64,000 bases of DNA. Source: Patescibacteria group bacterium. GTDB taxonomy: Bacteria; Patescibacteriota; Patescibacteriia; Buchananbacterales; UBA6539. Location of the stretch: assembly GCA_034003985.1 (NCBI GenBank), contig JAVEXP010000002.1:80789-144788 (forward strand), read 5' to 3'. Made by a program: the position numbers and the translations under genes. Shown in pieces: positions 13,475 through 62,042 of the stretch (its first letter is position 1; each line of letters opens with the position of its first letter). The notes beneath the pieces were generated by a model. It had not been told where the DNA came from. It searched no databases and was given only the letters and a program-made list of their open reading frames with translations.

Positions 13475-13512
13475 TTATTTTAGTAAGCAATCCTAACTTT
13501 AAGTTAGGGGCT

Positions 13513-13741
13513 TAAAATAAAAGTTCATTGATACTTTTTGGACCAATTAGGGTTTAGTTTCCCTTGATGACCTAAGGCAAAGGTCGATCCAATGACTTGG
13601 AGTCTTTCGCCTGTCAAGGAATTAGAAGCTAAACGGCTTTGTGCCCGCAGGCGATGTTGTTAGGTTCGCCTAGGCGTAACAAAATCGCTGTCAGCCTAAC
13701 CGGAAAGCTTTGATGAACAAAATTAATGAAAGGAAATAAAC
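13513..13741 (+). promoter_or_regulatory. Long, relatively GC-rich, stem-loop-rich 5' leader of the giant surface-protein gene
   Basis: 267-bp non-coding gap with several hairpins read by eye (CCAAtgacTTGG; CGCCTG...CAGGCG enclosing AAGCtaaacgGCTT; GTTAGG...CCTAAC enclosing GCCTAGGC); strong RBS AAAGGAAAT 7 nt before ATG 13742. Confidence 0.35.
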
Positions 13742-19263: not shown

Positions 19264-19267
19264 AACT

Positions 19268-19966: not shown

Positions 19967-19972
19967 TTTTTA

Positions 19973-32235: not shown

Positions 32236-34029
32236 ATGCCGTCTGATTATCTAGCCAAAGTATCCGGAGTCTTTCGGTTGTCGGTTAAAGCATTTAGTGA
32301 ATATAAATTCCAAATGCTTATTTTGGTCGGCTTGAGCTTGGTTGGTGGGTTGCTTGAAGGTATTGGTATTACGGCGGTAATTCCATTGTTGTCTTTGGTG
32401 GTGGAAAGCGCTCAGACTGAGCAAAACGCGATTATGGTGGTAATTCAGAATCTGTTTGCTTTCTTTAACTTGTCATTTTCAATTAAGTCTTTGTTGGTCT
32501 TTATTGGCATTCTATTTTTTGTCAAAGCTTTAATTATGATTCTTTTGGAGTATATTAAGATAATCATTACCACTAATTATGAAACTAAAACCCGATTATC
32601 GTTATTCCAGGAGATTTTGCGTTCCGATTGGCTGCATCTGATAAAACAAAAGTTGGGATATTTGGACACTATTTTGTTGATTGACATTCCTTCCAGCGCC
32701 ATTTTACTGCGCGAAATTGGCACCGCCATCATGATCAGTACCAGTTTGCTGGTTTACATTGTCATTGCTCTTAATATTTCTTTTGGGGTAACAATGGTGA
32801 CCATTGGGCTGGGTGGCTTGATTTTTGTCACTATGCGGCCGTTGTTGTTTCAGGTTAAGCGCTACTCCCATAAAGTTACCAACATCAATAAAGAAGTCGC
32901 TCATCATGTCAACGAAAATATTTTTGGAATCAAAAGCATCAAAGCAACCAATGTCACCGATAAGGTGATTAACGAAGGTAAAATTTTATTTGATAAATTA
33001 AAGCGCGGCCGGATTAACATCGTGATTTTCAAGAGTTTAACCAGTTCGTTCATTCAGCCGATTAGCATCGTTTTTGTCAGCATCGTTTTTGTGGCAATGT
33101 ATAAATCGCCGGATTTCAATTTTGCCGTGCTGGTGGCGGTGATGTACCTAATTGATCGAATTTTTATTTATATCCAAAAAATGGAACGCAGTCTTAACAC
33201 CATCACTGAGCATGTTCCTTATTTGAAAAGTGTTGTTGATTATCAAGAAAATTCTCAATTGAATCAAGAAATTGACGCCGGCCAAGCCGATTTTAAATTT
33301 GAACATCAGATCAAATTTGACAATATAAATTTTGGTTACCAAAAAAATCAAGAAGTTTTGCGTGGTTTGAACTTAGTGGTTTCCAAAGGCCAAACTGTTG
33401 GCTTGATTGGTCCGTCTGGTTCCGGCAAGACAACAATAATTGATTTGACTTTGAAATTGATAAATCCCGAGTCCGGTAGAATTTTATTGGATGACACCGA
33501 CATTAAGGATATCAAGATGTCGCAATGGCGTGATAATATTGGCTATGTCTCGCAGGATATATTTTTGATCAATGATACAATTGCCAATAACATTAAGTTT
33601 TATCGGCCCGATATTTCTAGGGAAAAATTGGAACAAGCCGCTAAAATGGCCAATATTCATGACTTTATTATTGGTTCGCCCGACGGTTATCAAACCTTTG
33701 TTGGTGATCGCGGAGTTATGCTTTCGGCCGGTCAGCGCCAGCGGATTGTCATTGCTCGGGTGTTGGCTACTAATCCCCAGATTTTAATTCTAGATGAAGC
33801 TACTAGCGCTTTAGATAGTGAATCGGAAATGAGAATCCAGGATGTCATTGAATCTTTGCACCAGAAAATAACGGTTATTATTATTGCTCATCGTCTCTCA
33901 ACTATTAAGAATGTTGATCAATTGTTTGTTTTGGCGGAAGGAAAAATTGTTGAGTCTGGTCCGCCCGAGGAGTTATTAAAAAATAAAGACACCTATTTTT
34001 ATAAAATGTCTAATATTAGTAAGGAATAG
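32236..34029 (+). CDS. ABC exporter, fused TMD-NBD (MsbA/PglK/Wzk-like lipid-linked glycan flippase candidate)
   Basis: 597 aa; six-TM domain then Walker A GPSGSGKTT, signature LSAGQRQRIVIARVL, Walker B ILILDEATSALD, H-loop IIAHRLST. Confidence 0.85.
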   Translation: MPSDYLAKVSGVFRLSVKAFSEYKFQMLILVGLSLVGGLLEGIGITAVIPLLSLVVESAQTEQNAIMVVIQNLFAFFNLSFSIKSLLVFIGILFFVKALIMILLEYIKIIITTNYETKTRLSLFQEILRSDWLHLIKQKLGYLDTILLIDIPSSAILLREIGTAIMISTSLLVYIVIALNISFGVTMVTIGLGGLIFVTMRPLLFQVKRYSHKVTNINKEVAHHVNENIFGIKSIKATNVTDKVINEGKILFDKLKRGRINIVIFKSLTSSFIQPISIVFVSIVFVAMYKSPDFNFAVLVAVMYLIDRIFIYIQKMERSLNTITEHVPYLKSVVDYQENSQLNQEIDAGQADFKFEHQIKFDNINFGYQKNQEVLRGLNLVVSKGQTVGLIGPSGSGKTTIIDLTLKLINPESGRILLDDTDIKDIKMSQWRDNIGYVSQDIFLINDTIANNIKFYRPDISREKLEQAAKMANIHDFIIGSPDGYQTFVGDRGVMLSAGQRQRIVIARVLATNPQILILDEATSALDSESEMRIQDVIESLHQKITVIIIAHRLSTIKNVDQLFVLAEGKIVESGPPEELLKNKDTYFYKMSNISKE

Positions 34030-34033: not shown

Positions 34034-35032
34034 ATGTTCAAAGATCAAACAATTTTAATCACGGGCGGGACTGGCTCGCTGGGAAAAAAATTAGTTAAGT
34101 ACTTTCTGTTTCAAACCCAGGCCAAAAAAATTATTGTCTTCAGCCGTGACGAACTCAAACAAAGTCAAATGCAAAAGATTTTGTTGCCCCATGATGCCGA
34201 CGACCGGTTGCGGTTTTTTATCGGTGATGTCCGTGATCTCCAGCGGTTGAGGCGGGCATTGCATGGGGTTGATATAGTTATTCATACCGCCGCTTTAAAG
34301 CAGGTTCCAGCTTTGGAGTATAATCCGATCGAGGCAATTAAAACCAATATTTACGGTTCACAGAATGTTGTTGAAGCTTCAATTGACGAAGGTGTTAAAA
34401 AGGTTTTATTGATTTCCACCGACAAAGCCGCGCAGCCGATTAATTTATATGGTGCCACCAAGCTGGCCGCCGAAAAATTATTTATCGCCGCTAATTCTTA
34501 CGGTGCCGGTAAAACCATTTTTAGTGCCGTCAGATACGGCAATGTGATTGGCAGTCGCGGCAGTATTGTTGATTTGTTACTAAACAGTCCCGAAGCCGAT
34601 AAAATCGGCATCACCCATCCGGAGATGACTCGCTTTTGGATTACCTTGGATCAAGCAGTTCAGCTGGTAGTTTTTGCTTTGGAAAATATGGAGGGTGGTG
34701 AAATTTTTATTCCAAAGATTCCCAGTATGAAATTAATTGATTTGTTCGAGGCGATTACCCCGGGGGTTAATCGTGCCGTAAGTGGCATTCGCCCCGGTGA
34801 AAAGATTCATGAAGATTTGGTGAACGAACACGAATCAGCTTGCGGTTATGAATTGGAAAATAATTATGTAATTTTACCCCAATTTATATTTTTTGCTGAA
34901 GGAGTTTATGACAAATATAAAAAAGACGGCAAAAAACTTACTGAGGGCTTCAGTTATAAGAGTAATCAAAATGACAAATGGCTGAATAAGGATGAAATTG
35001 CCAAAATTGTTAAAGAATTAACCATTGGATAA
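34034..35032 (+). CDS. pseB: UDP-N-acetylglucosamine 4,6-dehydratase (inverting), PseB/FlaA1
   Basis: MFKDQTILITGGTGSLGKKL...RDELKQ...FIGDVRD...YGATKLAAEKLF...GNVIGSRGS...MTRFWITL...GGEIFIPKIPSMKL, very close to the C. jejuni/H. pylori PseB pattern as recalled. Confidence 0.85.
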   Translation: MFKDQTILITGGTGSLGKKLVKYFLFQTQAKKIIVFSRDELKQSQMQKILLPHDADDRLRFFIGDVRDLQRLRRALHGVDIVIHTAALKQVPALEYNPIEAIKTNIYGSQNVVEASIDEGVKKVLLISTDKAAQPINLYGATKLAAEKLFIAANSYGAGKTIFSAVRYGNVIGSRGSIVDLLLNSPEADKIGITHPEMTRFWITLDQAVQLVVFALENMEGGEIFIPKIPSMKLIDLFEAITPGVNRAVSGIRPGEKIHEDLVNEHESACGYELENNYVILPQFIFFAEGVYDKYKKDGKKLTEGFSYKSNQNDKWLNKDEIAKIVKELTIG

Positions 35033-36143
35033 AATGATTCCTTACGGCAAACAATCAATCAGGGATGACGATATTAACTCAGTCGTCAAGGTGTTAAAAT
35101 CTGATTTTTTGACTACCGGTCCTAAAGTTTCAGAATTTGAAAATAGTCTGGTAAAATATTGTGGCGTCAAATATGTAGTAGCGGTTTGTAACGGTACAGC
35201 TGCTTTACATTTAGCCTATTTGGCCGCTGGCCTTAAAACCGGTGATGAAGTTATTGTTAGTCCCAATACTTTTGTGGCGACTACTAATATGATTTTGGCA
35301 GTTGGGGCTAAACCGGTGTTCTGCGATATTAGATTAGATACCTATAATATTGATGAAACTAAGATTACTAAGTTATTGACCAAGAAAACCAAGGCAATCG
35401 TAGCCGTCGATTTTGCCGGTCAACCCGCGGAATATCAGAAAATTAAAAATATTTGTAAAAAATATAAATTATTGTTGATTGAAGACGCGGCTCATTCACT
35501 GGGTGCCGATTACCACGGCCGGAAGGCCGGTAATTTGGGGGATGTGGCGACGATGAGTTTCCATCCGGTCAAGAGTATTACTACCGGTGAGGGCGGTGTG
35601 GTATTAACCAATAATAAAGATATCTGGGAGAGGCTGATTAAATTTAGGAATCACGGAACCACTAAAGATCGTCGGGGTTTTAATGTAATGACTGATTTTG
35701 GTTATAATTATCGTTTGACCGACATTCAAGCCGCATTAGGAATTAATCAATTATCGAGATTGAATAAGTTTGTCAACACTCGTCGGAAATTGGCTAATCG
35801 CTATATTAATCAGCTGAAATCTGTTTCACAAATAATTTTACCGCTTGAACAAAAAGATCTTCATTCCAGTTGGCATTTATTCGTCATTAGGACTAAAAAA
35901 GCTTACGATCGGTTGCCGCTGTATAATTTTTTGAAAACCAAGGGGATTGGTGTTAATTTTCATTATCCGACAGTTTACTCCCAGCCATTTTATCGCCGTA
36001 ATGGTTATGCCAAAACCAAATTGAAAAATGCTGACATTTATGCTTCGCAAGCCATTACCATTCCTTTGTTTCCCGCGCTAAACTTAGAACAGCAGGATTA
36101 TGTAGTTAATTCCATTAAAGAATATTATAAGATGTCGTCATGA
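35025..36143 (+). CDS. pseC: DegT/DnrJ/EryC1-family PLP aminotransferase, PseC-like (UDP-4-amino-4,6-dideoxy-sugar transaminase)
   Basis: MIPYGKQSIRDDDI...; SFHPVKSITTGEGGVV PLP-Lys region; sits between pseB and pseF. Confidence 0.75.
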   Translation: MDKMIPYGKQSIRDDDINSVVKVLKSDFLTTGPKVSEFENSLVKYCGVKYVVAVCNGTAALHLAYLAAGLKTGDEVIVSPNTFVATTNMILAVGAKPVFCDIRLDTYNIDETKITKLLTKKTKAIVAVDFAGQPAEYQKIKNICKKYKLLLIEDAAHSLGADYHGRKAGNLGDVATMSFHPVKSITTGEGGVVLTNNKDIWERLIKFRNHGTTKDRRGFNVMTDFGYNYRLTDIQAALGINQLSRLNKFVNTRRKLANRYINQLKSVSQIILPLEQKDLHSSWHLFVIRTKKAYDRLPLYNFLKTKGIGVNFHYPTVYSQPFYRRNGYAKTKLKNADIYASQAITIPLFPALNLEQQDYVVNSIKEYYKMSS

Positions 36144-36832
36144 AATCAATTGCTATTATTCCGGCCCGTGGTGGCAGCAAAAGGATACCTAATAAAAATA
36201 TTAAGGATTTTCTTGGTTATCCAATCATTAAATATGTCATTGAAACCGCTATTGATTCTAAATGTTTTGATGAAGTGATTGTTTCGACTGATAGTAAGAA
36301 AATAGCCAGCCTTGCCGAAAAATTCGGGGCTTCAGTCCCTTTTCTCAGATCACCCAAAAGTTCTAATGATCATGCCACTACGGCCGATGTTATCAGTGAA
36401 GTTATCGAAAATTATCGTAAGCGGAATAATAATTTTGATTTCTTCTGTTGCCTTTATCCCACCTCCATATTTGTGACTAGCCAACTATTAAATTCTGCTT
36501 TTGACCAGCTAAAAGGCGACGGTTTAGACGGCGTTATATCGGTTATGAAATATCGGCATCCTATTGAGCGGGCATTCAAGATTGATGATGGCAATTTATC
36601 GATGTTGTATCCGGAAAATGTTTTTGGTCGTACCCAGGATTTTGTCCCTAAATATCATGATGCTGGTCAATTCTACTTTATGAAAACGGATGCTTTTTTG
36701 CGGGAAAAGAAAATATTTACCTCTAATATTAGAGGTTTTGTATTGCCTTTCAGGTATGTCCAGGATATTGATACGGAAGAGGATTGGTATTTGGCCGAGC
36801 TGAAATATAATATTTTAAAAAATCAAAATTAA
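36140..36832 (+). CDS. pseF: CMP-nonulosonate synthetase, PseF/NeuA family (CTP_transf_3)
   Basis: N-terminus MKSIAIIPARGGSKRIPNKNIK typical of acylneuraminate/pseudaminate cytidylyltransferases. Confidence 0.7.
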   Translation: MKSIAIIPARGGSKRIPNKNIKDFLGYPIIKYVIETAIDSKCFDEVIVSTDSKKIASLAEKFGASVPFLRSPKSSNDHATTADVISEVIENYRKRNNNFDFFCCLYPTSIFVTSQLLNSAFDQLKGDGLDGVISVMKYRHPIERAFKIDDGNLSMLYPENVFGRTQDFVPKYHDAGQFYFMKTDAFLREKKIFTSNIRGFVLPFRYVQDIDTEEDWYLAELKYNILKNQN

Positions 36833-36869
36833 TTATTTACAACATCAATAGGCCTCAATTTTTAAGAAT

Positions 36870-37796
36870 ATGAATAATAAAATCAGGATTTTGATAATTG
36901 GCTTTGGATCAATCGGTAAGAGACATTATCGAAATTTATTTCAGGCCGGATATCAAGATATTGATTTTTATGATCCCAAGGTTATTAAATACGAAAATCG
37001 CATTAGTTTGCCGGAGGTCTCTAAAAAAATATTGGCAAACTATGGTGTCGTATTTATTTGTACGCCAGATAATCTTCACATTAAATATGCTTTGATGGCC
37101 GCTCAAGCTGGCTGTCATTTATTCATTGAAAAACCACTCTCGGACAGTTTAAAAAATGTTAAAAAACTCCGAAGTATTATTAAGCAAAAAAAGTTGATAT
37201 CGTTTGTAGCTTGTAATATGAGGTTTCATCCTTGCTTAATCAAGATGAAAGAGATGGTTAATCGCGGTAGCTTGGGAAAAATTTACAGCATTCGGAACGA
37301 ATTCGGCCACTATTTGCCAGCTTGGCGGCCTGGTGAGGATTATCAGTCTATCTATAAGAGCGGCATCATTTTAAATGACATGCATGAGTTTGATTTGCTT
37401 TTCTGGTTGAATAATTTTAAGTCGGTAAAATCAAAAACCAGAATATCTGGCAATGTCAGTAATTTGCGGGGAGTAGGTGAAGATCAGGCCGTTGTCAGTT
37501 TTGAATTTAATAATAAAGTTTTTGGAACGGTCCATTGTGATTATTTACAAAAGAAATATAGTCGATCTTGTAAAATTGTTGGCGAAAAGGGTAATTTAAA
37601 TTGGAATTTTGATGATAACATCGTTTGGCTGGAGAATGAAAAAGGCCGGAAGATGATGGCTCATTACAAGAGTTATAAAATTAATGAAAGCTATTTAAGA
37701 GAAATAAAGTATTTTATGGGTTGTGTTATTAATAACACCAAAACTTCCAATGATGTTATCAGGGCTACTGCAATATTAGAACATGTTTATGAATAA
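36870..37796 (+). CDS. Gfo/Idh/MocA-family NAD(P)-dependent oxidoreductase
   Basis: N-terminal Rossmann IRILIIGFGSIGKRH, ~308 aa, EKP motif (HLFIEKPLS). Confidence 0.6.
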   Translation: MNNKIRILIIGFGSIGKRHYRNLFQAGYQDIDFYDPKVIKYENRISLPEVSKKILANYGVVFICTPDNLHIKYALMAAQAGCHLFIEKPLSDSLKNVKKLRSIIKQKKLISFVACNMRFHPCLIKMKEMVNRGSLGKIYSIRNEFGHYLPAWRPGEDYQSIYKSGIILNDMHEFDLLFWLNNFKSVKSKTRISGNVSNLRGVGEDQAVVSFEFNNKVFGTVHCDYLQKKYSRSCKIVGEKGNLNWNFDDNIVWLENEKGRKMMAHYKSYKINESYLREIKYFMGCVINNTKTSNDVIRATAILEHVYE

Positions 37797-38535
37797 TCTT
37801 TGTATTATCCAAGCTCGAATGGGTTCCAGCCGTTTACCGGGCAAAATGTTGATGAGGTTGGGAGAATTTACGGTTATTGAATATCTCTTGAAGAGATTGG
37901 TTCGCAGTAAAAAAATTGATAAGATTGTTGTCGCAACCACTGATCAAAAAACCGATGACTCATTGGTTGACCTTCTTCAAAAGAATAAAGTTGAATTTTT
38001 TCGGGGTTCGGAAAATGATGTCCTTGATCGCTATTACCAATCTGCCTTGGGTTTTCCTGAATTTGATACGATTATTCGAATTACCGGCGATTGTCCATTA
38101 ATGGATCCTGAAATTGTTGATCAGGTGATAAGTTTTTTTGAAAATGGTGATTATGATTATGTTAATAATGTTGATCCCGAGCCCACATTTCCCGATGGCA
38201 TGGATGTTGAGGTATTTTCCAGAAATGCGCTTATTCAAGCGGCAGTAAACGCCACCAAAAAATCAGACCGCGAACATGTTACGCTTTATATTAGGAACAA
38301 TGAGTTATTTAAAAAAGGTTTTGTGTCTTCAGATATTGATTACTCGGGCTATCGTTTAACTCTTGATGAACCGCTTGATCTGGAAGTGATCAGGCATTTA
38401 GTTAATAATCTACCGCCAGACTCTAATTTTAAAGATTACCTTGAATTTTTAGACGCTAATCCGGAATACCAAAAAAACAATATTATCAGGCGCAATGAGG
38501 GTCTGGAAATATCATTAAAGAATGACCTAATCTAA
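37783..38535 (+). CDS. Second cytidylyltransferase of the CTP_transf_3 family (KdsB/SpsF-like)
   Basis: LCIIQARMGSSRLPGKMLMRLGEFTVIEY resembles the KdsB/SpsF N-terminal nucleotide-binding motif. Confidence 0.65.
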   Translation: MFMNNLCIIQARMGSSRLPGKMLMRLGEFTVIEYLLKRLVRSKKIDKIVVATTDQKTDDSLVDLLQKNKVEFFRGSENDVLDRYYQSALGFPEFDTIIRITGDCPLMDPEIVDQVISFFENGDYDYVNNVDPEPTFPDGMDVEVFSRNALIQAAVNATKKSDREHVTLYIRNNELFKKGFVSSDIDYSGYRLTLDEPLDLEVIRHLVNNLPPDSNFKDYLEFLDANPEYQKNNIIRRNEGLEISLKNDLI

Positions 38536-38544
38536 AATTAAAAT

Positions 38545-39834
38545 ATGAAAAATCGATATCAAAAAAGTAATCAGGCTTTTAAAAAGATTAATCGGTTGAT
38601 TCCGCTTGCTTCGCAGACCTTTAGTAAAAGCTATCTGCAATATGTTAAGGGTACGGCGCCATTATTTGTTAGTCGGGCTAAGGGTTGTCGTATTTGGGAT
38701 GTTGATGGAAATGAATATGTTGATATGATAAATTCTTTACTGGCTGTATCTTTGGGTTACAATCATCCATCGACTAATCGTGCCATTGCCAAACAGCTTA
38801 AGAAAGGAATCAGTTTTTCACTCGCTACTTTGTTGGAAGGCGAATTGGCTGAATTGTTGATTAAATATATACCAAGTGCGGAAATGGTAAGATTCGGCAA
38901 AAATGGTTCTGACGCTACTACCGGTGCTATCAGATTGGCCCGGGCAATCACTGGTCGGGAGGAAATCGCGGTTTGCGGTTTTCATGGTTGGCATGATTGG
39001 TATATTGGCAGTACTACCAGAAAACTCGGGGTGCCGAAGTCGACAGTTGAGTTAACTCATAAATTTGAATATAATAATCTCGAATCATTAGCTAAAATAT
39101 TCAAATCTCGCCGTAATAAAATTGCCGCGGTTATCATGGAGCCGATGAGTTATGAATGGCCAAAAGATAATTTCTTGGCCAAAGTTAAAAAATTAGCTCA
39201 TCAACACGGCGCGCTGTTGATATTTGATGAGGTTATAACCGGATTTCGTTTCGGTTTGGGCGGCGCTCAAAAATATTTTGAAGTTACGCCAGATCTTTCT
39301 TGTTTTGGCAAGTCAATGGCTAATGGCATGCCAATTTCCGCTTTGGTTGGAAAAAGACAATATATGAAAAGAGTCGAAGATATTTTTTATTCATTCACTT
39401 TCGGTGGTGAGAGTCTTTCACTGGCAGTTGCTATTGCCACCATCCAAGAGATGAAAAATAATAATTTTTCTAAAGTAATTGATCAAACCGGTAAATATCT
39501 AAAAATCGGCACTGAAAGAATAATTAAGAAACATGGCTTAATGGAAGTGGTTGAATTGAAAGGCGCTAATCACTGGCAGATTTTCTTTTTCCATGACCAC
39601 CGCGCTGCCAAAGCAATGGAAATAAAATCTTATGTCCAGGAAGAGTTGTTAGCCAGGGGAGTTTTATGGTATGGTCAGCATAACATCAGTTTTAGCCACC
39701 GACAAAAAGATTTAGATTTTGTTCTTAGTCATTATAATCAAGTATTTGAATTATTGAGCAATCAGTTGGCCAAAGGAGTTTTGTCCAAGGGTATTAAAAG
39801 TCGGATGATAACCGATATTTTTAAAGTTAGGTAA
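38545..39834 (+). CDS. Class III PLP aminotransferase (glutamate-1-semialdehyde aminomutase-like)
   Basis: DEVITGFRFGLGGAQKYFEVTPDLSCFGKSMANGMPISAL (PLP-Lys in FGK); 429 aa. Confidence 0.75.
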   Translation: MKNRYQKSNQAFKKINRLIPLASQTFSKSYLQYVKGTAPLFVSRAKGCRIWDVDGNEYVDMINSLLAVSLGYNHPSTNRAIAKQLKKGISFSLATLLEGELAELLIKYIPSAEMVRFGKNGSDATTGAIRLARAITGREEIAVCGFHGWHDWYIGSTTRKLGVPKSTVELTHKFEYNNLESLAKIFKSRRNKIAAVIMEPMSYEWPKDNFLAKVKKLAHQHGALLIFDEVITGFRFGLGGAQKYFEVTPDLSCFGKSMANGMPISALVGKRQYMKRVEDIFYSFTFGGESLSLAVAIATIQEMKNNNFSKVIDQTGKYLKIGTERIIKKHGLMEVVELKGANHWQIFFFHDHRAAKAMEIKSYVQEELLARGVLWYGQHNISFSHRQKDLDFVLSHYNQVFELLSNQLAKGVLSKGIKSRMITDIFKVR

Positions 39835-39836
39835 TC

Positions 39837-40487
39837 ATGTTGGATTTTATACCAATTAGAGCCGTTGCCGTTTTAGCCGGTGGAATTATTAAAGATAAAA
39901 ACGGCAAGTGGCATACCACTAATTTTGGTGAGCCAGGTGATCACGCCGGTGTAACCGGCGATCGCCTGAGAGTTGAAGCTGCCACTTATCTTTACTTTGA
40001 TGATCCGGAATTATTAATTATTGCTTCGGCCGGGAAGGGCCATCTGCAAAATGTTGCTGATGCGCCGATGTTGGCCGAAATTATTGCCGAAGAATTGATA
40101 GAAAATGGTGTAGCGTCTGATCATATTTTTAAAGAAGTGACTTCCAATAGTACCTATGAACAATTATTGGAAATTCAGCGGCTGTCGGCACAAAAAAATA
40201 TTAAAGAACTTGGAATAGTTTCTAATGAGTATCATTTGCCTCGCATTAAAGCGATGATTGATAATTTCAATCAGCTGGCTGATTTGAGAAATGATAGTGT
40301 TAAATTGATTTCCGCCGAAAAAGTTTTAATTGATCATGATCCAGACAAGTGGTCCAACCTGATTAGTCAAGCTTATAATAGTTCCGAAATGGTTGAACGG
40401 CTTGCCAAAGAAGAACAGGGGATTGCCGATATTGAAGTCGGCAAATATGAGTTTAGAGATTTAAACGACAGTAATAAAGTTATATGA
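39837..40487 (+). CDS. Hypothetical protein, DUF218/YdcF-like fold suspected
   Basis: AVAVLAGGIIKDKNGKW Rossmann-like start; in-operon. Confidence 0.45.
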   Translation: MLDFIPIRAVAVLAGGIIKDKNGKWHTTNFGEPGDHAGVTGDRLRVEAATYLYFDDPELLIIASAGKGHLQNVADAPMLAEIIAEELIENGVASDHIFKEVTSNSTYEQLLEIQRLSAQKNIKELGIVSNEYHLPRIKAMIDNFNQLADLRNDSVKLISAEKVLIDHDPDKWSNLISQAYNSSEMVERLAKEEQGIADIEVGKYEFRDLNDSNKVI

Positions 40488-41545
40488 TAAATAATTTAAT
40501 CATTCAATCCGCCAACAGTGAAATAAAAATTGGTCCTGGTAATCCAGTTTTTATTGTCGCGGAAATTTCAGCCAATCATAATCAGTCAATTGATTTGGCC
40601 AAAGGATTGATTGACGCGGCCGCTCAAGCCGGTGCTAATGCGGTGAAAATGCAGACTTATACTGCCGATACTATTACCATTGATTCGGACAAAGAATATT
40701 TTAAAATTACTGGCGGCAACTGGGCCGGTGAAACTTTGTACAGTCTTTATCAAAAAGCCTATACGCCGTGGGAGTGGCAGGCTGAATTAAAGACCTATGC
40801 CGAGGGCAAGGACCTGGTTTGGTTTTCCGCGCCTTTTGATCAAACCGCTGTTTCTTTTTTGGAAGGCTTGGGAGTTAGTCTTTATAAAATCGCCGGCTAT
40901 GAGTTTGCTGATTTGCCGTTATTGCAGGCGGTAGCCAAGACCGGCAAACCGGTGGTTGCATCAGCGGCCATGGCTTCAGTTGAAGACATCGCCTGGTCAA
41001 TTAAAATTTTGCGGGATAATGGCTGCAGCCACTTGGCTATTTTGCATTGTATTAATGCTTATCCGGCCAACCCCGAAGAAATGAATATCTCGACGATTAC
41101 TGATATTATCAATAGATTTGGAGTAGTGTCTGGTCTATCCGATCATTCATTAGGTGCCGAAGCGGCGGTGGCTGCAGTAGCCGCCGGCGCGTCAATTATT
41201 GAGAAACATATTATTATTTCCCGACAGTCAGACAGTCCGGATAAAGAATTTTCTTTGGAACCGGACGAATTTAAATCTTTGGTTAATGCTGTCAGAGAAA
41301 CAGAAAAAATTATTGGCCGGCCAAAGTATGGTGCTGGCCTCAGTGAACAGCCTAATGAGAAGTTTAAGCGATCCCTGTTTGTTGTTAAGGATATCAAGCG
41401 CGGTGAAACTTTTACTGAAGAAAATGTCCGTTCAATTCGTCCCGGCTATGGTTTGCCACCAAAATTTTTGCCGAAAATTATGGGTAAAAAAGCGGTTCAG
41501 GACATTGAACGAGGAACGCCTTTGAGTAACGACCTAATTGATTAA
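40484..41545 (+). CDS. pseI: Pseudaminic acid synthase (NeuB family with C-terminal SAF domain)
   Basis: VFIVAEISANHNQSIDLAKGLIDAAAQAGANAVKMQTY NeuB-type TIM-barrel start; C-terminal SAF (antifreeze-like) domain. Confidence 0.8.
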   Translation: MINNLIIQSANSEIKIGPGNPVFIVAEISANHNQSIDLAKGLIDAAAQAGANAVKMQTYTADTITIDSDKEYFKITGGNWAGETLYSLYQKAYTPWEWQAELKTYAEGKDLVWFSAPFDQTAVSFLEGLGVSLYKIAGYEFADLPLLQAVAKTGKPVVASAAMASVEDIAWSIKILRDNGCSHLAILHCINAYPANPEEMNISTITDIINRFGVVSGLSDHSLGAEAAVAAVAAGASIIEKHIIISRQSDSPDKEFSLEPDEFKSLVNAVRETEKIIGRPKYGAGLSEQPNEKFKRSLFVVKDIKRGETFTEENVRSIRPGYGLPPKFLPKIMGKKAVQDIERGTPLSNDLID

Positions 41546-42011
41546 TATTTTAGATATGACTGAAAATTATTTAGTCCGCCCGGTTGAGACCGATGACATT
41601 AAGCGAATTTGGGAAATTAGAAATCACGAAGATGTCAGAAAAGTTTCGGGCAGTTCGGACATTATCACTTTGGAAAATCATCTTAGTTGGTTTAACAAGA
41701 AATATTTTACCACTCGGCAAAATCTTTGTTATGTTTTAGCAAATAACAATCAGATTATTGGCTATTGTCGGTTTGATTACGATCCTGATAAAAATTATTA
41801 TGTTGTTTCGATTGCTGTTGATCCGGAATTTCATAGTCGGGGATTGGGTGGTATCTTGTTGGCTCAAAGCCTTAAAGAATTTGGTGGTCGCGGAGCTGTT
41901 TTGGCTCAAATCAAGAAACTTAATATTCCTTCAATTAAATTGTTTGAGAAAAATGGCTTTGTTTTGGATCATCAAGATCAAGAAAATTGGTATTTAATTT
42001 ATAATAATTAG
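41538..42011 (+). CDS. pseH: GNAT N-acetyltransferase, PseH-like
   Basis: 157 aa; acetyl-CoA motif region RGLGGILLAQSLKEFG; directly follows pseI. Confidence 0.6.
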   Translation: MINILDMTENYLVRPVETDDIKRIWEIRNHEDVRKVSGSSDIITLENHLSWFNKKYFTTRQNLCYVLANNNQIIGYCRFDYDPDKNYYVVSIAVDPEFHSRGLGGILLAQSLKEFGGRGAVLAQIKKLNIPSIKLFEKNGFVLDHQDQENWYLIYNN

Positions 42012-42012: not shown

Positions 42013-43830
42013 TTGATTATGCAGGCATTAATTTTAGCCGCCGGCCAAGGCAACCGTTTAAAACCAATGACTGACAAAATCCCTAAGGGATTAGTTCAGG
42101 TAAACGGCATCCCAATTCTTGAAAATGATTTAAATATTCTATCAAAGAAAGGCATTGCCAAAACTTTTATTGTTGTTGGTTATCTTCAGGATGAAATTAA
42201 AAATCATTTTGGTTATGACTGGAACGGGATGAAAATTGAATATCTTGAAAATAAAATTTTTGATCAAACTAACAACATTTATTCTTTATGGTTGGCTAAA
42301 GATGTGTTGCATGATGATACTATCTTGATGGAATGCGACATTTTTTTTGAGGAAAAATTAATTGATATATTGATTTCTGAAAAACTTGAAGACCGGGTCG
42401 TGGTTGATCGATTCGAACCTTTTATGGATGGAACGGTAGTGACCATTAATGATCACAGCGAGATAACAAAATTGATAACTTCCGATGATCAAGGAGAAAA
42501 TTTTGATTTTTCCAATACTTACAAAACCGTCAACATCTATCTGTTTACTAAAGATTTTTTGGAAAAGTTTTTCGTTCCTAACCTTGATCTTTATGTCAGC
42601 ACCCAAGGTAAGAATAAATATTATGAATTAATCCTTTCAATATTCATCAATTTCCGTAACCCGGTTTTAAAAGCCGCTGTTATTTCTGGTGTTAAATGGA
42701 TGGAAGTAGATGATTTTAGTGATCTGCGCCGGGCGGAAATGATGTTTGCTAATCCCCAAACCAGACTGGACGCCGCCCTTAATACTCACGGTGGTTTTTG
42801 GCGTTATGATTTTATGGATTTTTCCTATCTTTATAATTGGTATTTTCCGCCCTTGTCGTTAATTAACGAAATCCGAGTAAATTTACCAAGTTTATTGGCC
42901 ATTTATCCATCGTCTCAAAATTCAGTTAGTCGGATCCTTTCCAATTGGTTGGGGATTGAAGATAAGTATTTAGCGACCGCCAATGGTTCATCCGAGATAA
43001 TAAATTATGTTACCAGGACTTTGGTTAAAAAAATGTTGATCCCGGTACCGACTTTTAATGAATATGAGAGACTGTTGACGGCCGAGCAGATAGTTAAGTT
43101 TGATACTTCTAAAAATAATTTTGATCTTGATGAACAGGAGGTTGTAGATTTGGCCAGGCGGGAAGGCTGTAATTCAATTGTTTTAGTTAATCCGAATAAT
43201 CCGACCGGTAAATTTATGCCCTTGGCTGAAATAAAAAGTTTGGTTAAAAAATTGAATTTTCTCGACTTAATAATCGTTGATGAATCTTTTATTGACTACA
43301 CTTCATTAGACAAAAGCCAAAGCATGCACTCGGTTTTCGGCGAATTTTCCAATTTATTGATTGTTAAGAGCATGGGTAAGGATTTGGGTTTATTAGGTTT
43401 GCGCTTAGGTTATGCTTTGTCGGCCAATATCGATTTGATTAATGAAATTAGAATTAATTTGCCAATTTGGAATGTCAACTCTATTGCTGAGTATACTTTA
43501 GAATCCTTAACTAAATATCGAAAGGAGTTTGTCAAATCAATTGCATTAATGAATGATGATCGTCAGTATTTGATGAACCAGCTGCAAAATGTGGGCGGAC
43601 TTGAACCAATCGAATCGTACACCAATTTTATCACCTGTCGGATTAAAGGGAATGTCTCCAGTACCGAGCTGCGCGATCAATTATTTCTAAAACATAATAT
43701 TTTTATCAAGGATTGTAGTAATAAAAGTGGTATGGCCGACCAGAAGTATGTTCGGTTTGGCGTTAGGAAGAAAGCCGATGTTGATTTGTTAATCAAAGCG
43801 CTTAAAAAAGAATTATCAGATGGAAAATAA
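42013..43830 (+). CDS. Bifunctional protein: N-terminal sugar/alcohol-phosphate nucleotidyltransferase (LicC/GlmU-N-like) fused to a C-terminal class I/II PLP enzyme (HisC/CobD-like decarboxylase/aminotransferase)
   Basis: N-terminus MQALILAAGQGNRLKPMTDKIPKGLVQVNGIPILE (G-x-G-x-R-L NTP-transferase motif); C-terminal ~350 aa with aminotransferase class I/II features (NPNNPTGKFM, SMGKDLGLLGLRLGY with the Lys expected to bind PLP). Confidence 0.7.
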   Translation: MIMQALILAAGQGNRLKPMTDKIPKGLVQVNGIPILENDLNILSKKGIAKTFIVVGYLQDEIKNHFGYDWNGMKIEYLENKIFDQTNNIYSLWLAKDVLHDDTILMECDIFFEEKLIDILISEKLEDRVVVDRFEPFMDGTVVTINDHSEITKLITSDDQGENFDFSNTYKTVNIYLFTKDFLEKFFVPNLDLYVSTQGKNKYYELILSIFINFRNPVLKAAVISGVKWMEVDDFSDLRRAEMMFANPQTRLDAALNTHGGFWRYDFMDFSYLYNWYFPPLSLINEIRVNLPSLLAIYPSSQNSVSRILSNWLGIEDKYLATANGSSEIINYVTRTLVKKMLIPVPTFNEYERLLTAEQIVKFDTSKNNFDLDEQEVVDLARREGCNSIVLVNPNNPTGKFMPLAEIKSLVKKLNFLDLIIVDESFIDYTSLDKSQSMHSVFGEFSNLLIVKSMGKDLGLLGLRLGYALSANIDLINEIRINLPIWNVNSIAEYTLESLTKYRKEFVKSIALMNDDRQYLMNQLQNVGGLEPIESYTNFITCRIKGNVSSTELRDQLFLKHNIFIKDCSNKSGMADQKYVRFGVRKKADVDLLIKALKKELSDGK

Positions 43831-44533
43831 TTGGCATAAAATTTGGGAGAAAAAGGGGAGTGTGGCTAAGACTGGACAGCCTAGTCTTGCCGATTTAATC
43901 GGTTATGATGGCTTTGATTCTAAGATTGGGCGGATTACTGAAGCCGAATGGCGAAAATATGTTTCGCAAACTATTGCTAAATTGAGGATTAGCAAAAATG
44001 ATAAAATTTTAGAAATTGGTTGTGGTGCCGGAGCATTTTTGTTGCCTTTATATGAGCAGGGTTATAATGTTGCTGGCTTGGATTACTCTCAGTCGTTATT
44101 GGACGCTGCCAAAAAAGTGCTCGTTGGGGCCAATTTGGTCTGTGGTCAAGCCAATAATTTGCCGTTTAAAAATGGTGAATTTGATGTGGTCATCAGTAAT
44201 AGCATTTTTCATTATCTACCAAGCATTGATTATGCCGCCAAGGTGCTTAATGAAATGTTTCGAGTTTTGAATCAATCTGGTCGAGCGGCAGTTTTGGATA
44301 TTAATGATCAGGCTAAACAAGATTTTGCCGAAGATTTAAGAAGAAAAGAAATTGGCAATAAAGAATATGAAGAAAAATATAAGGGGTTGGGTCAATTGTA
44401 TTATCCTAAGTCTTTTTTTGAAAACTTCGCTGAAGAGCATGATATTAAATTTGTTATTGAACCGCAAGTCATTGATGGCTATCAGAATTCTTTGTGGCGT
44501 TACAATTTTTATTTTTATAAATCATCATTATGA
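43820..44533 (+). CDS. Class I SAM-dependent methyltransferase
   Basis: Motif I ILEIGCGAGAFLL, motif post-I LDYS, motif II FDVVISNSIFHYL. Confidence 0.7.
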   Translation: MENNWHKIWEKKGSVAKTGQPSLADLIGYDGFDSKIGRITEAEWRKYVSQTIAKLRISKNDKILEIGCGAGAFLLPLYEQGYNVAGLDYSQSLLDAAKKVLVGANLVCGQANNLPFKNGEFDVVISNSIFHYLPSIDYAAKVLNEMFRVLNQSGRAAVLDINDQAKQDFAEDLRRKEIGNKEYEEKYKGLGQLYYPKSFFENFAEEHDIKFVIEPQVIDGYQNSLWRYNFYFYKSSL

Positions 44534-61970: not shown

Positions 61971-62042
61971 TTATTATAAATTTGTTTTTTCGATTTTTAA
62001 AAATAAAAGGGGAGCTAGGGTGAGTTTTGTTTTTAAAAATCC

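What the first reader, a model, noticed from the sequence alone, without database searches (positions are those of the whole stretch)
34034..42011. Near-complete CMP-pseudaminic acid pathway lacking a recognisable PseG but carrying three extra enzymes
Seen in sequence: PseB (very strong match), PseC-like DegT aminotransferase, PseF-type cytidylyltransferase, NeuB-family PseI with SAF domain and a GNAT (PseH-like) are present in one operon. No MurG/GT28-like UDP-sugar hydrolase (PseG) was recognised. Inserted among them are a Gfo/Idh/MocA oxidoreductase (36870), a second KdsB/SpsF-like cytidylyltransferase (37783), a class III (GSA-aminomutase-like) aminotransferase (38545) and a DUF218-like protein (39837). 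Established knowledge: the six-step PseBCHGIF pathway of Campylobacter/Helicobacter; accessory ptm/pse genes generate 7-N-modified nonulosonates (acetamidino, glyceroyl etc.). Inference: the product is a modified pseudaminic (or related 5,7-diamino nonulosonic) acid, and a non-orthologous hydrolase replaces PseG. Two cytidylyltransferases suggest two CMP-activated ulosonic acids.
Basis: partly seen in the sequence, partly recalled or inferred. Interest (0 to 1): 0.6.

Follow-up and report, generated by a model that had tools for sequence, protein, structure and literature searches.

The report
Pseudaminic acid operon with DUF218 replacing PseG
A candidate-phyla-radiation bacterium carries a complete-looking operon for the surface sugar CMP-pseudaminic acid, but the usual UDP-sugar hydrolase PseG is missing and an unrelated DUF218/YdcF-family protein sits in its slot, which gives this long-uncharacterised protein family its first concrete, testable enzymatic role.

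Summary
Nine tightly packed + strand genes at 34034-42011 encode PseB, PseC, PseF and PseI, each above NCBIfam equivalog cut-offs. They also encode a PseH-like GNAT (below cut-off), a Gfo/Idh/MocA oxidoreductase, an SpsF-like cytidylyltransferase (CT2), a GSA-aminomutase-like class III aminotransferase (AT3) and a DUF218 protein. No PseG is present anywhere in the 64 kb window.

The window comes from a Patescibacteria MAG. The oxidoreductase-CT2-AT3 trio is not an oddity. It is a recurrent, uncharacterised accessory module already drawn in Aeromonas, Legionella and Vibrio pse clusters, where PseG follows it.

In this window, and in about 25 related loci, a dedicated DUF218 clade occupies PseG's slot:
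- It usually abuts pseI.
- It never co-occurs with PseG (0 loci with both, 22 DUF218 only, 12 PseG only; Fisher p = 1.5e-4).
- It is found in minimal PseB-PseC-CT-DUF218-PseI-GNAT clusters.
- It is fused to GNAT and formyltransferase, the partners PseG itself shows, and to a cytidylyltransferase.

DUF218 is not homologous to PseG. It keeps the Thr and His that SanA needs for function.

Best reading (about 0.6): DUF218 is a non-homologous UDP-sugar hydrolase replacing PseG. This is inferred, not shown biochemically.

The parts
34034..35032 (+). pseB: UDP-GlcNAc 4,6-dehydratase (inverting)
   Evidence: TIGR03589 scores 446.1 bits against a 407.75 cut-off. LegB scores only 62.8 bits. Pfam: Polysacc_synt_2.
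35025..36143 (+). pseC: UDP-4-amino-4,6-dideoxy-L-AltNAc aminotransferase (DegT family)
   Evidence: TIGR03588 scores 438.7 bits against a 423.5 cut-off. Pfam: PF01041.
36140..36832 (+). pseF: canonical CMP-pseudaminic acid synthetase; the additional cytidylyltransferase compared with the closest relatives
   Evidence: TIGR03584 scores 286.1 bits against a 205.7 cut-off. No PseF-type gene lies between pseC and the oxidoreductase in L010, L020 or L029.
36870..37796 (+). Gfo/Idh/MocA oxidoreductase, part of the accessory module; substrate unknown
   Evidence: Pfam PF01408 and PF22725; no equivalog. Orthologues of 44-53% identity sit in L010, L016, L020, L023 and L029. An aldo/keto reductase takes this place in L001, L003, L021, Aeromonas and Legionella. 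Fused to DUF218 in P0201 and P0215.
37783..38535 (+). CT2: SpsF-like cytidylyltransferase (CTP_transf_3), probably the lineage's native CMP-nonulosonate synthetase
   Evidence: PF02348 scores 109.8 bits. It is below all KdsB cut-offs and has no PseF hit. Closest solved structure is 6oew, 'cytidylyltransferase', at 3e-41. It is the only CT in many related pse loci. Fused to DUF218 in P0174, P0186, P0198, P0202 and P0308.
38545..39834 (+). AT3: class III (GSA-aminomutase-like) PLP enzyme of the accessory module; not HemL
   Evidence: PF00202. PRK06209 scores 386 bits (cut-off 486) and TIGR00713 scores 269 bits (cut-off 527). PDB relatives are GSA aminomutases, with gentamicin C-6' aminotransferases at 1e-39. 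It lies directly upstream of DUF218 in 11 other non-redundant loci, and upstream of or near PseG in L056-58, L063 and Aeromonas.
39837..40487 (+). DUF218/YdcF-family protein: proposed non-homologous substitute for PseG (UDP-2,4-diacetamido-2,4,6-trideoxy-beta-L-altropyranose hydrolase)
   Evidence: - Family and fold: PF02698. The AF2 model has pLDDT 90.5, and its only specific PDB match is YdcF 3ca8.
- Not related to PseG: hhalign probability 0.2%.
- Position: starts 3 nt after AT3 ends and overlaps the pseI start by 4 nt.
- Distribution: 0 co-occurrence with PseG across loci, Fisher p = 1.5e-4.
- Minimal clusters: L022, L066, L012.
- Fusions with GNAT, formyltransferase and CT.
- Residues: T106 and H133 align with the SanA residues T125 and H149, which are essential for SanA function.
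40484..41545 (+). pseI: pseudaminic acid synthase (NeuB + SAF); the only NeuB-family gene in the window
   Evidence: TIGR03586 scores 450.9 bits (cut-off 340.25), against 296 bits for NeuB_NnaB (cut-off 399.65). It is the single PseI hit in the window.
41538..42011 (+). GNAT N-acetyltransferase, probable PseH equivalent
   Evidence: TIGR03585 scores 47.6 bits, below the 93.1 cut-off. Pfam: Acetyltransf_1. The same GNAT type follows pseI in L012, L015 and L022, and lies 2.4 kb downstream of pseI in L023. It matches the GNAT half of the K. pneumoniae PseG-GNAT fusion at E = 1.5e-9.
32236..34029 (+). Fused TMD-NBD ABC exporter (PglK/MsbA-like), conserved next to pse genes; probable flippase for the lipid-linked glycan
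   Evidence: ABC_membrane plus ABC_tran. Orthologues of 39-50% identity lie upstream of the pse genes in L006, L007, L012, L014 and L095.

Best explanation
The region is one operon of a Patescibacteria genome that makes a CMP-activated pseudaminic acid, probably a modified one, for a surface glycan.

Proposed steps, all inferred:
1. PseB and PseC convert UDP-GlcNAc into UDP-4-amino-4,6-dideoxy-beta-L-AltNAc.
2. The GNAT N-acetylates the new amine, which is the PseH role.
3. The DUF218/YdcF-family protein (39837-40487) releases the free 2,4-diacetamido-2,4,6-trideoxy-L-altrose from UDP, the step normally done by the GT-B enzyme PseG.
4. PseI condenses the sugar with PEP.
5. A cytidylyltransferase activates the product with CTP.

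Steps 1, 4 and 5 rest on equivalog-level matches to characterised families.

DUF218 is not homologous to PseG, so this would be a non-orthologous (analogous) gene displacement. It is typical of Patescibacteria, with about 300 representative clusters. The clade keeps the Thr and His of the Thr/His/Glu set that is genetically essential in E. coli SanA. It also has a nucleotide-binding alpha/beta fold and no membrane anchor, which fits a cytosolic nucleotide-sugar enzyme.

The oxidoreductase, SpsF-like cytidylyltransferase and class III aminotransferase form a separate, widespread accessory module. The SpsF-like enzyme is probably the lineage's native CMP-nonulosonate synthetase. The dehydrogenase/aminotransferase pair probably tailors the sugar. 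My guess is oxidation and transamination of the CH3-CH(OH)- end at C8, by analogy with the gentamicin C-6' enzymes. That part is speculative.
For: Shown by tools:
1. Pathway enzymes are at equivalog level and no PseG is present in 64 kb.
2. The DUF218 gene is translationally coupled between AT3 and pseI.
3. The homologues found by sequence search are 37-49% identical, and every one that carries an organism name is from Patescibacteria. In the 26 non-redundant loci recovered, the gene abuts pseI (gap of 75 nt or less) in 17, and otherwise lies next to CT, GNAT or PseC.
4. Among loci of 8 kb or more: DUF218+PseG 0, DUF218 only 22, PseG only 12, neither 14; Fisher p = 1.5e-4. In the PseI-anchored sample, which is unbiased with respect to DUF218, the counts are 5 DUF218, 21 PseG and 0 both.
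5. Minimal clusters leave DUF218 as the only unassigned gene for the only missing step: L022 PseB-PseC-CT-DUF218-PseI-GNAT, L066/L076 PseB-PseC-DUF218-PseI, and L012 PseB-PseC-PseF-(amidotransferase-sized ORF, HisH/HisF-sized ORFs)-DUF218-PseI-GNAT.
6. The same module with PseG in the DUF218 slot is seen in Aeromonas pseB-pseC-AKR-pseF-AT3-pseG-pseI (PMC7874193), Legionella Sg6 (PMC3694923), and L056-58 and L063.
7. Fusions: 17 of the 148 new entries among the best 150 clade representatives are fusions. They comprise DUF218-GNAT x7 (plus P0035), CT-DUF218 x4, CT-DUF218-GNAT x1 (seen on 7 or more contigs), formyltransferase-DUF218 x2, DUF218-Gfo x2 and HAD-DUF218 x1. PseG shows PseG-GNAT and PseG-formyltransferase fusions.
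8. DUF218 and PseG are unrelated: hhalign probability 0.2%, and the only specific structural match is YdcF.
9. SanA T125 and H149 align to T106 and H133 (PMC12176290).
Against: - No biochemical evidence exists. DUF218 has no known activity, and YdcF was reported to bind SAM, not UDP (title of PDB 3ca8; PMC12176290).
- Only 64 kb of a contig of at least 273 kb was inspected, so a pseG elsewhere in the genome is not excluded.
- Fourteen long pse loci have neither PseG nor DUF218 (for example L067-69, L085, L031). Absence of PseG from a cluster therefore does not by itself call for a local substitute.
- One clade member (L019) lies outside any pse cluster.
- The loci are phylogenetically related, so the Fisher test overstates independence.
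- HAD-DUF218 and DUF218-Gfo fusions would also fit a different chemistry, such as pyrophosphate cleavage to sugar-1-phosphate or a tailoring role.
Confidence: 0.6

Rival explanations
1. A canonical pseG lies elsewhere in the genome, or the UDP-sugar is hydrolysed by some unlinked enzyme. The DUF218 protein is then a tailoring or auxiliary enzyme of the Pse pathway, for example a SAM-using enzyme like YdcF, or an enzyme acting on the N-acylated intermediate. It would not be the hydrolase.
For: - YdcF is deposited as an 'S-adenosyl-L-methionine utilizing enzyme'.
- Only 64 kb of the contig was seen.
- Pse clusters with neither PseG nor DUF218 exist.
- L019 shows the clade outside a pse cluster.
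- DUF218-Gfo and HAD-DUF218 fusions occur.
Against: - There is strict mutual exclusion with PseG across 34 informative loci.
- Minimal six-gene clusters have DUF218 as the only gene left for the only missing step.
- DUF218 takes PseG's position in the AT3-PseG-PseI module.
- DUF218 shares PseG's fusion partners: GNAT and formyltransferase.
- A pure tailoring enzyme would be expected to co-occur with PseG at least sometimes.
Confidence: 0.22
2. The UDP-sugar is cleaved by the NUDIX hydrolase at 28354-28842 to sugar-1-phosphate plus UMP, followed by a phosphatase. DUF218 is then irrelevant to this step.
For: A NUDIX gene lies in the same polysaccharide locus, 5 kb upstream of pseB.
Against: - No NUDIX gene appears in the Pfam gene lists of the related loci L001, L003, L006, L007, L095 and L097.
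- The NUDIX gene sits inside the glycosyltransferase block, not the pse operon.
- No dedicated phosphatase is present in the operon.
Confidence: 0.04
3. One reading: the oxidoreductase, second cytidylyltransferase and class III aminotransferase make a second, different CMP-activated ulosonic acid alongside CMP-Pse.
For: - There are two cytidylyltransferases in one operon.
- A CT2-like + AT3 + SDR + NeuB-like + HAD cluster without PseB/PseC exists on a Methylomagnum plasmid. The CT2/AT3 pair can therefore serve another NeuB-type pathway.
Against: - The 64 kb window has only one NeuB-family synthase.
- In the closest relatives CT2 is the sole CT next to PseB, PseC and PseI, so it must serve the Pse-type product there.
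Confidence: 0.12

Closest known systems
Canonical CMP-pseudaminic acid pathway PseB-C-H-G-I-F of Campylobacter jejuni / Helicobacter pylori (operon form e.g. pseB-pseC-pseF-pseG-pseI on K. pneumoniae plasmid NZ_CP055164)
   Same: PseB, PseC, PseF and PseI are equivalog-level members, and a GNAT is in the PseH role. The gene order is PseB-PseC-CT-...-[hydrolase slot]-PseI. The pathway logic is the same.
   Different: There is no GT-B PseG, and a 216-aa DUF218 protein sits in its slot. The GNAT is below the PseH cut-off. The operon also carries an extra SpsF-like CT, an oxidoreductase and a class III aminotransferase.
Aeromonas polar-flagellin glycosylation island group I (pseB-pseC-aldo/keto reductase-pseF-class III aminotransferase-pseG-(pseH)-pseI; PMC7874193), and the L. 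pneumophila Sg6/Sg12 LPS cluster (GNAT-PseG-GSA-aminomutase-like-CT...aryl-alcohol dehydrogenase; PMC3694923)
   Same: The same accessory trio of oxidoreductase, cytidylyltransferase and class III aminotransferase is interleaved with pse genes in almost the same order. The products there are Pse 'derivatives' of unsolved structure.
   Different: Those clusters have PseG after the aminotransferase, whereas this one has DUF218. The oxidoreductase here is Gfo/Idh/MocA instead of aldo/keto reductase. The host here is a CPR bacterium without an evident flagellar context.
DUF218 family (E. coli YdcF, PDB 3ca8; SanA; ElyC)
   Same: It has a Pfam PF02698 match, and YdcF is the only specific structural neighbour. 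The SanA-essential Thr and His are conserved. It is cytosolic like YdcF.
   Different: It belongs to a distinct clade: about 303 representatives at E<=1e-30 against about 8,100 generic DUF218 proteins. It has its own conserved C-terminal helical region (E161, E192, G195, Y204), lacks the membrane anchor of SanA and ElyC, and is embedded in nonulosonic-acid operons. No biochemical activity is known for any family member.
PseG (UDP-2,4-diacetamido-2,4,6-trideoxy-beta-L-altropyranose hydrolase, GT-B fold, TIGR03590/PF04101)
   Same: DUF218 takes the same operon position, shows the same fusion partners (GNAT, formyltransferase) and has the same presumed substrate.
   Different: There is no sequence or fold similarity (hhalign probability 0.2%, no GT-B match). 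DUF218 is about 210 aa against about 340-370 aa for PseG.
Gentamicin C-6' dehydrogenase / class III aminotransferase chemistry (PDB 7lld 'C-6' aminotransferase'; the GenQ/GenB1 role is recalled from my own knowledge)
   Same: A dehydrogenase is paired with a GSA-aminomutase-like class III aminotransferase in a sugar pathway. 7lld matches AT3 at E = 1.3e-39.
   Different: The relationship is distant. The substrate here is unknown. The analogy (CH3-CH(OH)- converted to CH3-CH(NH2)- at C8 of Pse) is my inference and was not tested.

Membership tests
CMP-pseudaminic acid pathway (PseBCHGIF) | Inverting UDP-GlcNAc 4,6-dehydratase PseB | tested here: met
   TIGR03589 scores 446.1 bits against a 407.75 cut-off.
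CMP-pseudaminic acid pathway (PseBCHGIF) | Aminotransferase PseC | tested here: met
   TIGR03588 scores 438.7 bits against a 423.5 cut-off. LegC scores 267 bits, below its 420 cut-off.
CMP-pseudaminic acid pathway (PseBCHGIF) | N-acetyltransferase PseH | tested here: inconclusive
   The GNAT at 41538-42011 hits TIGR03585 at 47.6 bits, below the 93.1 cut-off. Its position downstream of pseI is conserved in relatives.
CMP-pseudaminic acid pathway (PseBCHGIF) | UDP-sugar hydrolase PseG (GT-B, TIGR03590/PF04101) | tested here: not met
   There is no PF04101 hit on any window ORF. The PseG HMM finds nothing in six-frame ORFs, while controls score 350 and 561 bits.
CMP-pseudaminic acid pathway (PseBCHGIF) | Pseudaminic acid synthase PseI | tested here: met
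   TIGR03586 scores 450.9 bits against a 340.25 cut-off.
CMP-pseudaminic acid pathway (PseBCHGIF) | CMP-Pse synthetase PseF | tested here: met
   TIGR03584 scores 286.1 bits against a 205.7 cut-off.
CMP-pseudaminic acid pathway (PseBCHGIF) | Product is CMP-Pse5Ac7Ac or a derivative | not testable with these tools
   This needs in vitro reconstitution or LC-MS/NMR.
DUF218 / YdcF-SanA-ElyC family | Pfam PF02698 match above gathering score | tested here: met
   48.2 bits against a 27.6 cut-off.
DUF218 / YdcF-SanA-ElyC family | YdcF-like alpha/beta nucleotide-binding fold | tested here: met
   The AF2 model has pLDDT 90.5. Foldseek matches 3ca8 with probability 1.00 and TM 0.48-0.49. It is the only family-specific match; the E-values are weak.
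DUF218 / YdcF-SanA-ElyC family | Conserved Thr/His/Glu residues essential in SanA (T125, H149, E182) | tested here: inconclusive
   T125 aligns to T106 and H149 to H133. T106 is conserved in at least 90% of the clade and H133 is invariant. E182 fell outside the alignment; the invariant E161 is a candidate only.
PseG (as a homologous family) | Sequence or fold homology to GT-B PseG | tested here: not met
   hhalign probability 0.2%. There is no GT-B hit in the Foldseek PDB search.
PseG (as a function: UDP-sugar hydrolase) | Hydrolysis of UDP-2,4-diacetamido-2,4,6-trideoxy-beta-L-altropyranose | not testable with these tools
   Only genomic-context evidence is available.
Aeromonas/Legionella-type accessory module (oxidoreductase + SpsF-like CT + class III aminotransferase within pse clusters) | The three gene types are adjacent and interleaved with pse genes | tested here: met
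   Window 36870-39834. The same trio appears in L001, L003, L010, L016, L020, L029, L056-58 and L064, with looser spacing in L063 and L023, and in the literature.
Glutamate-1-semialdehyde 2,1-aminomutase (HemL) | Equivalog-level match | tested here: not met
   TIGR00713 scores 269.5 bits (cut-off 527.3) and NF004856 scores 386.1 bits (cut-off 486). The operon context is sugar biosynthesis.
CMP-Kdo synthetase KdsB | Equivalog-level match for the second cytidylyltransferase | tested here: not met
   The best KdsB models score 37-65 bits against cut-offs of 155-281. PDB KdsB chains match only at about 1e-6, against 3e-41 for 6oew.

The most novel reading that the evidence does not exclude
The DUF218 fold is a previously unrecognised class of glycosyl-diphosphate (nucleotide-sugar) hydrolase. 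This clade would be the first DUF218 protein with an assignable substrate, UDP-2,4-diacetamido-2,4,6-trideoxy-L-altrose.

By extension, the periplasmic paralogues SanA and ElyC of E. coli would act on undecaprenyl-diphosphate-linked sugar intermediates. That would explain their long-puzzling effects on peptidoglycan/ECA balance.

In addition, the conserved dehydrogenase/class III aminotransferase pair would convert Pse into an 8-amino (5,7,8-triamino) nonulosonic acid, a sugar I am not aware has been described.
Probability: 0.2. Interest if true: 0.85.

Novelty: new variant of a known kind. Interest (0 to 1): 0.66.

Why it matters
Pseudaminic acid is a virulence-linked surface sugar, and its six-step pathway is treated as canonical.

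- **Pathway prediction.** If a small, unrelated DUF218 protein replaces PseG across a whole bacterial radiation, the UDP-release step is evolutionarily replaceable. Pathway-prediction tools that require PseG would then miss Pse producers, including Patescibacteria. I found no paper that links Patescibacteria to Pse.
- **Function of DUF218.** The finding gives a precise, cheap-to-test biochemical hypothesis for DUF218 (YdcF/SanA/ElyC). This family is known to affect E. coli envelope homeostasis, but its enzymatic activity has been unknown for decades (PMC3879167, PMC12176290).
- **The accessory module.** The oxidoreductase/SpsF-like CT/class III aminotransferase module turns out to be a widespread, still uncharacterised tailoring unit of nonulosonic-acid pathways. 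It occurs in Aeromonas, Legionella, Vibrio, CPR and Methylomagnum.

Tried and rejected
1. I looked for a hidden or divergent PseG.
   - Pfam on all larger window ORFs, an own PseG HMM on six-frame ORFs of the window and of all loci, and Pfam/NCBIfam on the PseG-sized unassigned ORFs of related loci all found none.
   - The roughly 350-370-aa unknowns are Acetyltransf_6 (GNAT-type acetyltransferase domain), kinases, formyltransferases or M28-like proteins.
   - Only L007:13633-14703 is GT-B-like (Epimerase_2/DUF354). It is not PseG by the HMM (1.6 bits).
2. I tested remote homology between DUF218 and PseG. hhalign gave a probability of 0.2%, so this was rejected.
4. tblastn of the DUF218 protein against 72,556 plasmids found no match.
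5. tblastn of AT3 against plasmids found only distant homologues in unrelated contexts (a haloarchaeal cluster, L026), plus the Methylomagnum cluster L025.
6. The first attempt at search for related loci, with the 37-sequence alignment, failed because there was no conserved stretch. It was repeated with 11 closer sequences.
7. Literature searches found nothing linking DUF218 with pseudaminic acid (0 papers hold both terms), nothing on DUF218/YdcF acting on nucleotide sugars, and no listed paper linking pseudaminic acid with CPR.
8. The idea that the NUDIX gene supplies the hydrolase was rejected, because no NUDIX gene appears in the Pfam gene lists of the six related loci.
9. I could not inspect the remaining ~209 kb of the source contig or the rest of the MAG.

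Full report
**1. What is in the sequence**

Gaps are at most 37 nt and several stop and start codons overlap.

NCBIfam places four of them above curated equivalog cut-offs:
- PseB: 446 bits against a 408 cut-off.
- PseC: 439 against 424.
- PseF: 286 against 206.
- PseI: 451 against 340.

Legionaminic-type models are far below threshold (LegB 63 bits, LegC 267 against 420), so this is the inverting Pse route. The last gene is a GNAT that hits PseH only at 47.6 bits against a 93.1 cut-off.

Four further genes sit between pseF and pseI:
- A Gfo/Idh/MocA oxidoreductase.
- A CTP_transf_3 cytidylyltransferase, called CT2 here. It has no PseF hit and is well below the KdsB cut-offs.
- A class III aminotransferase, called AT3 here. 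It resembles GSA aminomutase but is below the HemL cut-offs.
- A 216-aa DUF218 protein.

No ORF of the 64 kb window carries a GT28/PF04101 domain. I built a PseG HMM from 112 sequences. It scored the positive controls at 350 and 561 bits but found nothing in any six-frame ORF of 70 aa or more in the window.

The surrounding locus is a large glycan-assembly island. It contains:
- A fused ABC exporter directly upstream.
- Five GT4 glycosyltransferases.
- A Bac_transf initiating transferase.
- A Wzy_C+TPR ligase/oligosaccharyltransferase-like protein.
- GT39-like proteins.

**2. Source organism**

The DUF218 protein is 100% identical to an NCBI entry, 'MAG: YdcF family protein [Patescibacteria group bacterium]', on a 272,827-bp contig. 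The relatives that carry an organism name are almost all from CPR lineages. These include Falkowbacteria, Paceibacterota, Portnoybacteria, Buchananbacteria, Magasanikbacteria, Giovannonibacteria and Niyogibacteria. Two bins are labelled Gammaproteobacteria and one Woesearchaeota.

**3. The 'extra enzymes' are a known but uncharacterised module**

The trio appears in published cluster maps:
- Group I Aeromonas flagellin glycosylation islands are drawn as pseB-pseC-[aldo/keto reductase]-pseF-[class III aminotransferase]-pseG-(pseH)-pseI (PMC7874193).
- The L. pneumophila Sg6/12 LPS cluster has GNAT-PseG-'GSA aminomutase'-cytidylyltransferase ... aryl-alcohol dehydrogenase (PMC3694923).
- A Vibrio cluster has an SpsF-like cytidylyltransferase fused to an aldo-keto reductase (PMC7371886).

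I found the same trio in many loci. In these the oxidoreductase family varies (Gfo/Idh/MocA, aldo/keto reductase, SDR), while CT2 and AT3 are constant.

In the closest relatives CT2 is the only cytidylyltransferase in view (L010, L020, L029, L001, L003). In this window the canonical PseF is therefore the additional enzyme, not CT2. CT2 also occurs without AT3 or an oxidoreductase (L022, L030), so it most likely acts as a CMP-nonulosonate synthetase in its own right.

Only one NeuB-family synthase exists in the window.

A Methylomagnum plasmid carries CT2-like + split transketolase + AT3 + SDR + NeuB-like + HAD-IIIA without PseB or PseC. The CT2/AT3 pair can therefore serve other NeuB-type pathways.

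AT3's solved relatives are GSA aminomutases and, more distantly, gentamicin C-6' aminotransferases. From my own knowledge, a dehydrogenase plus this type of aminotransferase converts CH3-CH(OH)- into CH3-CH(NH2)- in gentamicin biosynthesis. The C8-C9 end of Pse has the same chemistry. That is a guess and was not tested.

**4. The DUF218 protein sits in PseG's place**

*Position.* The gene starts 3 nt after AT3 ends and overlaps pseI by 4 nt. In 26 non-redundant loci that contain a member of this clade, the gene abuts pseI (gap of 75 nt or less) in 17. In most others it lies next to CT, GNAT or PseC. In the Aeromonas and Legionella module, and in L056-58 and L063, PseG follows or neighbours the AT3/CT2 genes and pseI. 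In the CPR loci DUF218 does.

*Complementarity.* I combined a DUF218-anchored genome sample with a PseI-anchored metagenome sample that is blind to DUF218.
- Loci of 8 kb or more: 0 with both, 22 with DUF218 only, 12 with PseG only, 14 with neither (Fisher p = 1.5e-4).
- The PseI-anchored sample alone: 5, 21 and 0.

*Sufficiency.* Minimal clusters leave DUF218 as the only unassigned gene for the only missing step:
- L022: PseB-PseC-CT-DUF218-PseI-GNAT.
- L066 and L076: PseB-PseC-DUF218-PseI.
- L012: PseB-PseC-PseF-(three ORFs sized like an amidotransferase, HisH and HisF)-DUF218-PseI-GNAT.

These clusters also show that DUF218 does not depend on the AT3/oxidoreductase trio.

*Fusions.* A profile of the clade finds 303 representative clusters at E<=1e-30, against 8,108 generic DUF218 proteins at E<=1e-3. 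Among the 148 new entries in the best 150 representatives, 17 are fusions:
- DUF218-GNAT x7, plus P0035.
- CT-DUF218 x4.
- CT-DUF218-GNAT x1. It is seen on 7 or more contigs.
- Formyltransferase-DUF218 x2.
- DUF218-Gfo/Idh/MocA x2.
- HAD-DUF218 x1.

PseG itself is often fused to GNAT (L008, P0075, P0085, P0099, P0141, P0153) and to a formyltransferase (P0082, P0114). From memory, not tested here, H. pylori HP0326 is a PseF-PseG fusion.

The triple fusion lies in a cluster that contains a 4,6-dehydratase-like gene, an RmlC/FdtA-like gene, DegT and NeuB. DUF218 is again the only hydrolase candidate there. The formyltransferase fusion directly follows NeuB.

**5. What kind of protein it is**

The AF2 model is confident (pLDDT 90.5). 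Its only family-specific PDB neighbour is E. coli YdcF (3ca8, probability 1.0, TM about 0.48). The other matches are generic nucleotide-binding alpha/beta proteins. No GT-B protein appears.

Profile-profile comparison with PseG gives a probability of 0.2%. If the function is shared, the two proteins are analogues, not homologues.

The clade has these invariant residues: W25, G41, R45, G66, G68, Q109, H133, R136, E161, E192 and Y204. D42, R43, E86, E100, T106, S129 and N130 are nearly invariant.

The SanA residues shown to be essential by mutagenesis (T125, H149, E182; PMC12176290) align to T106 and H133. E182 fell outside the alignment, and the invariant E161 is a candidate.

By direct reading, the protein has no N-terminal hydrophobic anchor. 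It is therefore cytosolic like YdcF, as a nucleotide-sugar enzyme should be.

**6. Mechanism proposed**

Steps 1, 4 and 5 follow from equivalog assignments. Steps 2 and 3 are inferred.
1. PseB and PseC convert UDP-GlcNAc to UDP-4-amino-4,6-dideoxy-beta-L-AltNAc.
2. The GNAT N-acetylates the new amine.
3. DUF218 removes UDP.
4. PseI condenses the free sugar with PEP.
5. PseF or CT2 makes the CMP-sugar.

The oxidoreductase and AT3 tailor the sugar. The site is unknown, and C8 amination is my guess.

The activated sugar is then probably added to a lipid-linked glycan by a KpsS-like transferase. The candidate is 45915-47471, which has weak similarity to the Capsule_synth-type proteins that flank pse genes in relatives. 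The glycan would be flipped by the ABC exporter and transferred by the Wzy_C/TPR protein. All of this last part is inference from domain content.

**7. Caveats**

- There is no biochemistry for any DUF218 protein, and YdcF was reported to bind SAM.
- Only 64 kb of the genome was visible.
- Fourteen long pse loci have neither PseG nor DUF218. One type (L067-69, L085) instead carries a CbiR-like TIM-barrel phosphodiesterase candidate between PseC and PseI. PseG-less clusters are therefore heterogeneous.
- One clade member (L019) is outside a pse cluster.
- The loci are not phylogenetically independent.
- The HAD and Gfo fusions leave room for a different chemistry.

**8. Novelty**

No paper in the searchable library contains both DUF218 and pseudaminic acid. 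None of the listed papers links CPR with pseudaminic acid. The DUF218 literature still treats the domain as having unknown activity.

The Pse pathway and the accessory trio are known kinds. The systematic replacement of PseG by a DUF218 clade appears to be an undescribed variant.

**9. Verdict**

- Observation: confirmed.
- Interpretation: partly supported.
- Confidence that this is a CMP-Pse-type operon: about 0.9.
- Confidence that DUF218 is the PseG substitute: about 0.6.
- Interest: 0.66.

Noticed in passing
window 42013-45922: A 605-aa fusion of a LicC-like nucleotidyltransferase with a CobD-like threonine/serine-phosphate decarboxylase (TIGR01140, 174 bits against a 290 cut-off). It is followed by a SAM methyltransferase, a 230-aa unknown and a LicD-like protein. 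This looks like a de novo route to a CDP-activated phospho-amino-alcohol (phosphoethanolamine/phosphocholine type or aminopropanol-phosphate type) that decorates the same glycan.
   Followed up: no
window 45915-47471: A 518-aa ORF with no Pfam hit. It is 27% identical over 329 aa to L017:12324-13868 and weakly similar to the Capsule_synth (KpsS-like) proteins that flank pse genes in related loci. It is a candidate pseudaminyltransferase.
   Followed up: partly
L067-L069 and L085 (e.g. L067:7832-8599): These are long pse clusters with neither PseG nor DUF218. They carry a 255-aa AP-endonuclease-2/xylose-isomerase-like TIM-barrel protein, with a weak hit to the cobamide phosphodiesterase CbiR, between PseC and an extended 482-aa PseI. 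They also carry a radical SAM enzyme. This may be a third, independent substitute for PseG.
   Followed up: partly
L025 (Methylomagnum ishizawai plasmid NZ_AP019784, locus 5977-12680): A cluster of a CT2-like cytidylyltransferase, split transketolase/DXS-like subunits, an AT3 homologue (42% identical), an SDR, a short NeuB-family synthase and a HAD-IIIA phosphatase, without PseB or PseC. It suggests the CT2/AT3 pair also serves a different, undescribed ulosonic-acid pathway.
   Followed up: partly
window 28354-28842: A NUDIX hydrolase gene embedded in the block of five GT4 glycosyltransferases upstream of the pse operon. No NUDIX gene appears in the Pfam gene lists of the six related loci examined.
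   Followed up: partly
window 52644-55097: An 817-aa Wzy_C (O-antigen ligase / O-oligosaccharyltransferase-like) protein with C-terminal TPR repeats. The same architecture lies right after NeuB in L006 and L095. This hints at protein or lipid O-glycosylation with the Pse-containing glycan.
   Followed up: no
window 12007-17440: An ECF sigma factor, a DUF5667 anti-sigma-like protein, and then a 1,232-aa ORF without any Pfam match. This may be a large surface protein and a glycosylation target.
   Followed up: no
window 17563-21622: Two PMT_2/GT39-like (ArnT-like) membrane glycosyltransferases flank a small TPR protein.
   Followed up: no
L003:4290-5915 and L022:5979-7053: L003 encodes a 541-aa PseC-GNAT fusion, which supports that GNAT type as the PseH equivalent. 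In L022 pseI is split into two ORFs by a frameshift or assembly error.
   Followed up: no
L019:9941-10648: The one clade member found outside a pse cluster. It is 235 aa with an N-terminal extension and lies between a tRNA-guanine transglycosylase and an MraY/WecA-like GT4 gene, in a bin labelled Gammaproteobacteria.
   Followed up: partly
window 62001-64000: G+C drops to 0.307, from about 0.40 elsewhere, next to a C5 cytosine DNA methylase (62043-63158, - strand). This may be a restriction-modification island.
   Followed up: no
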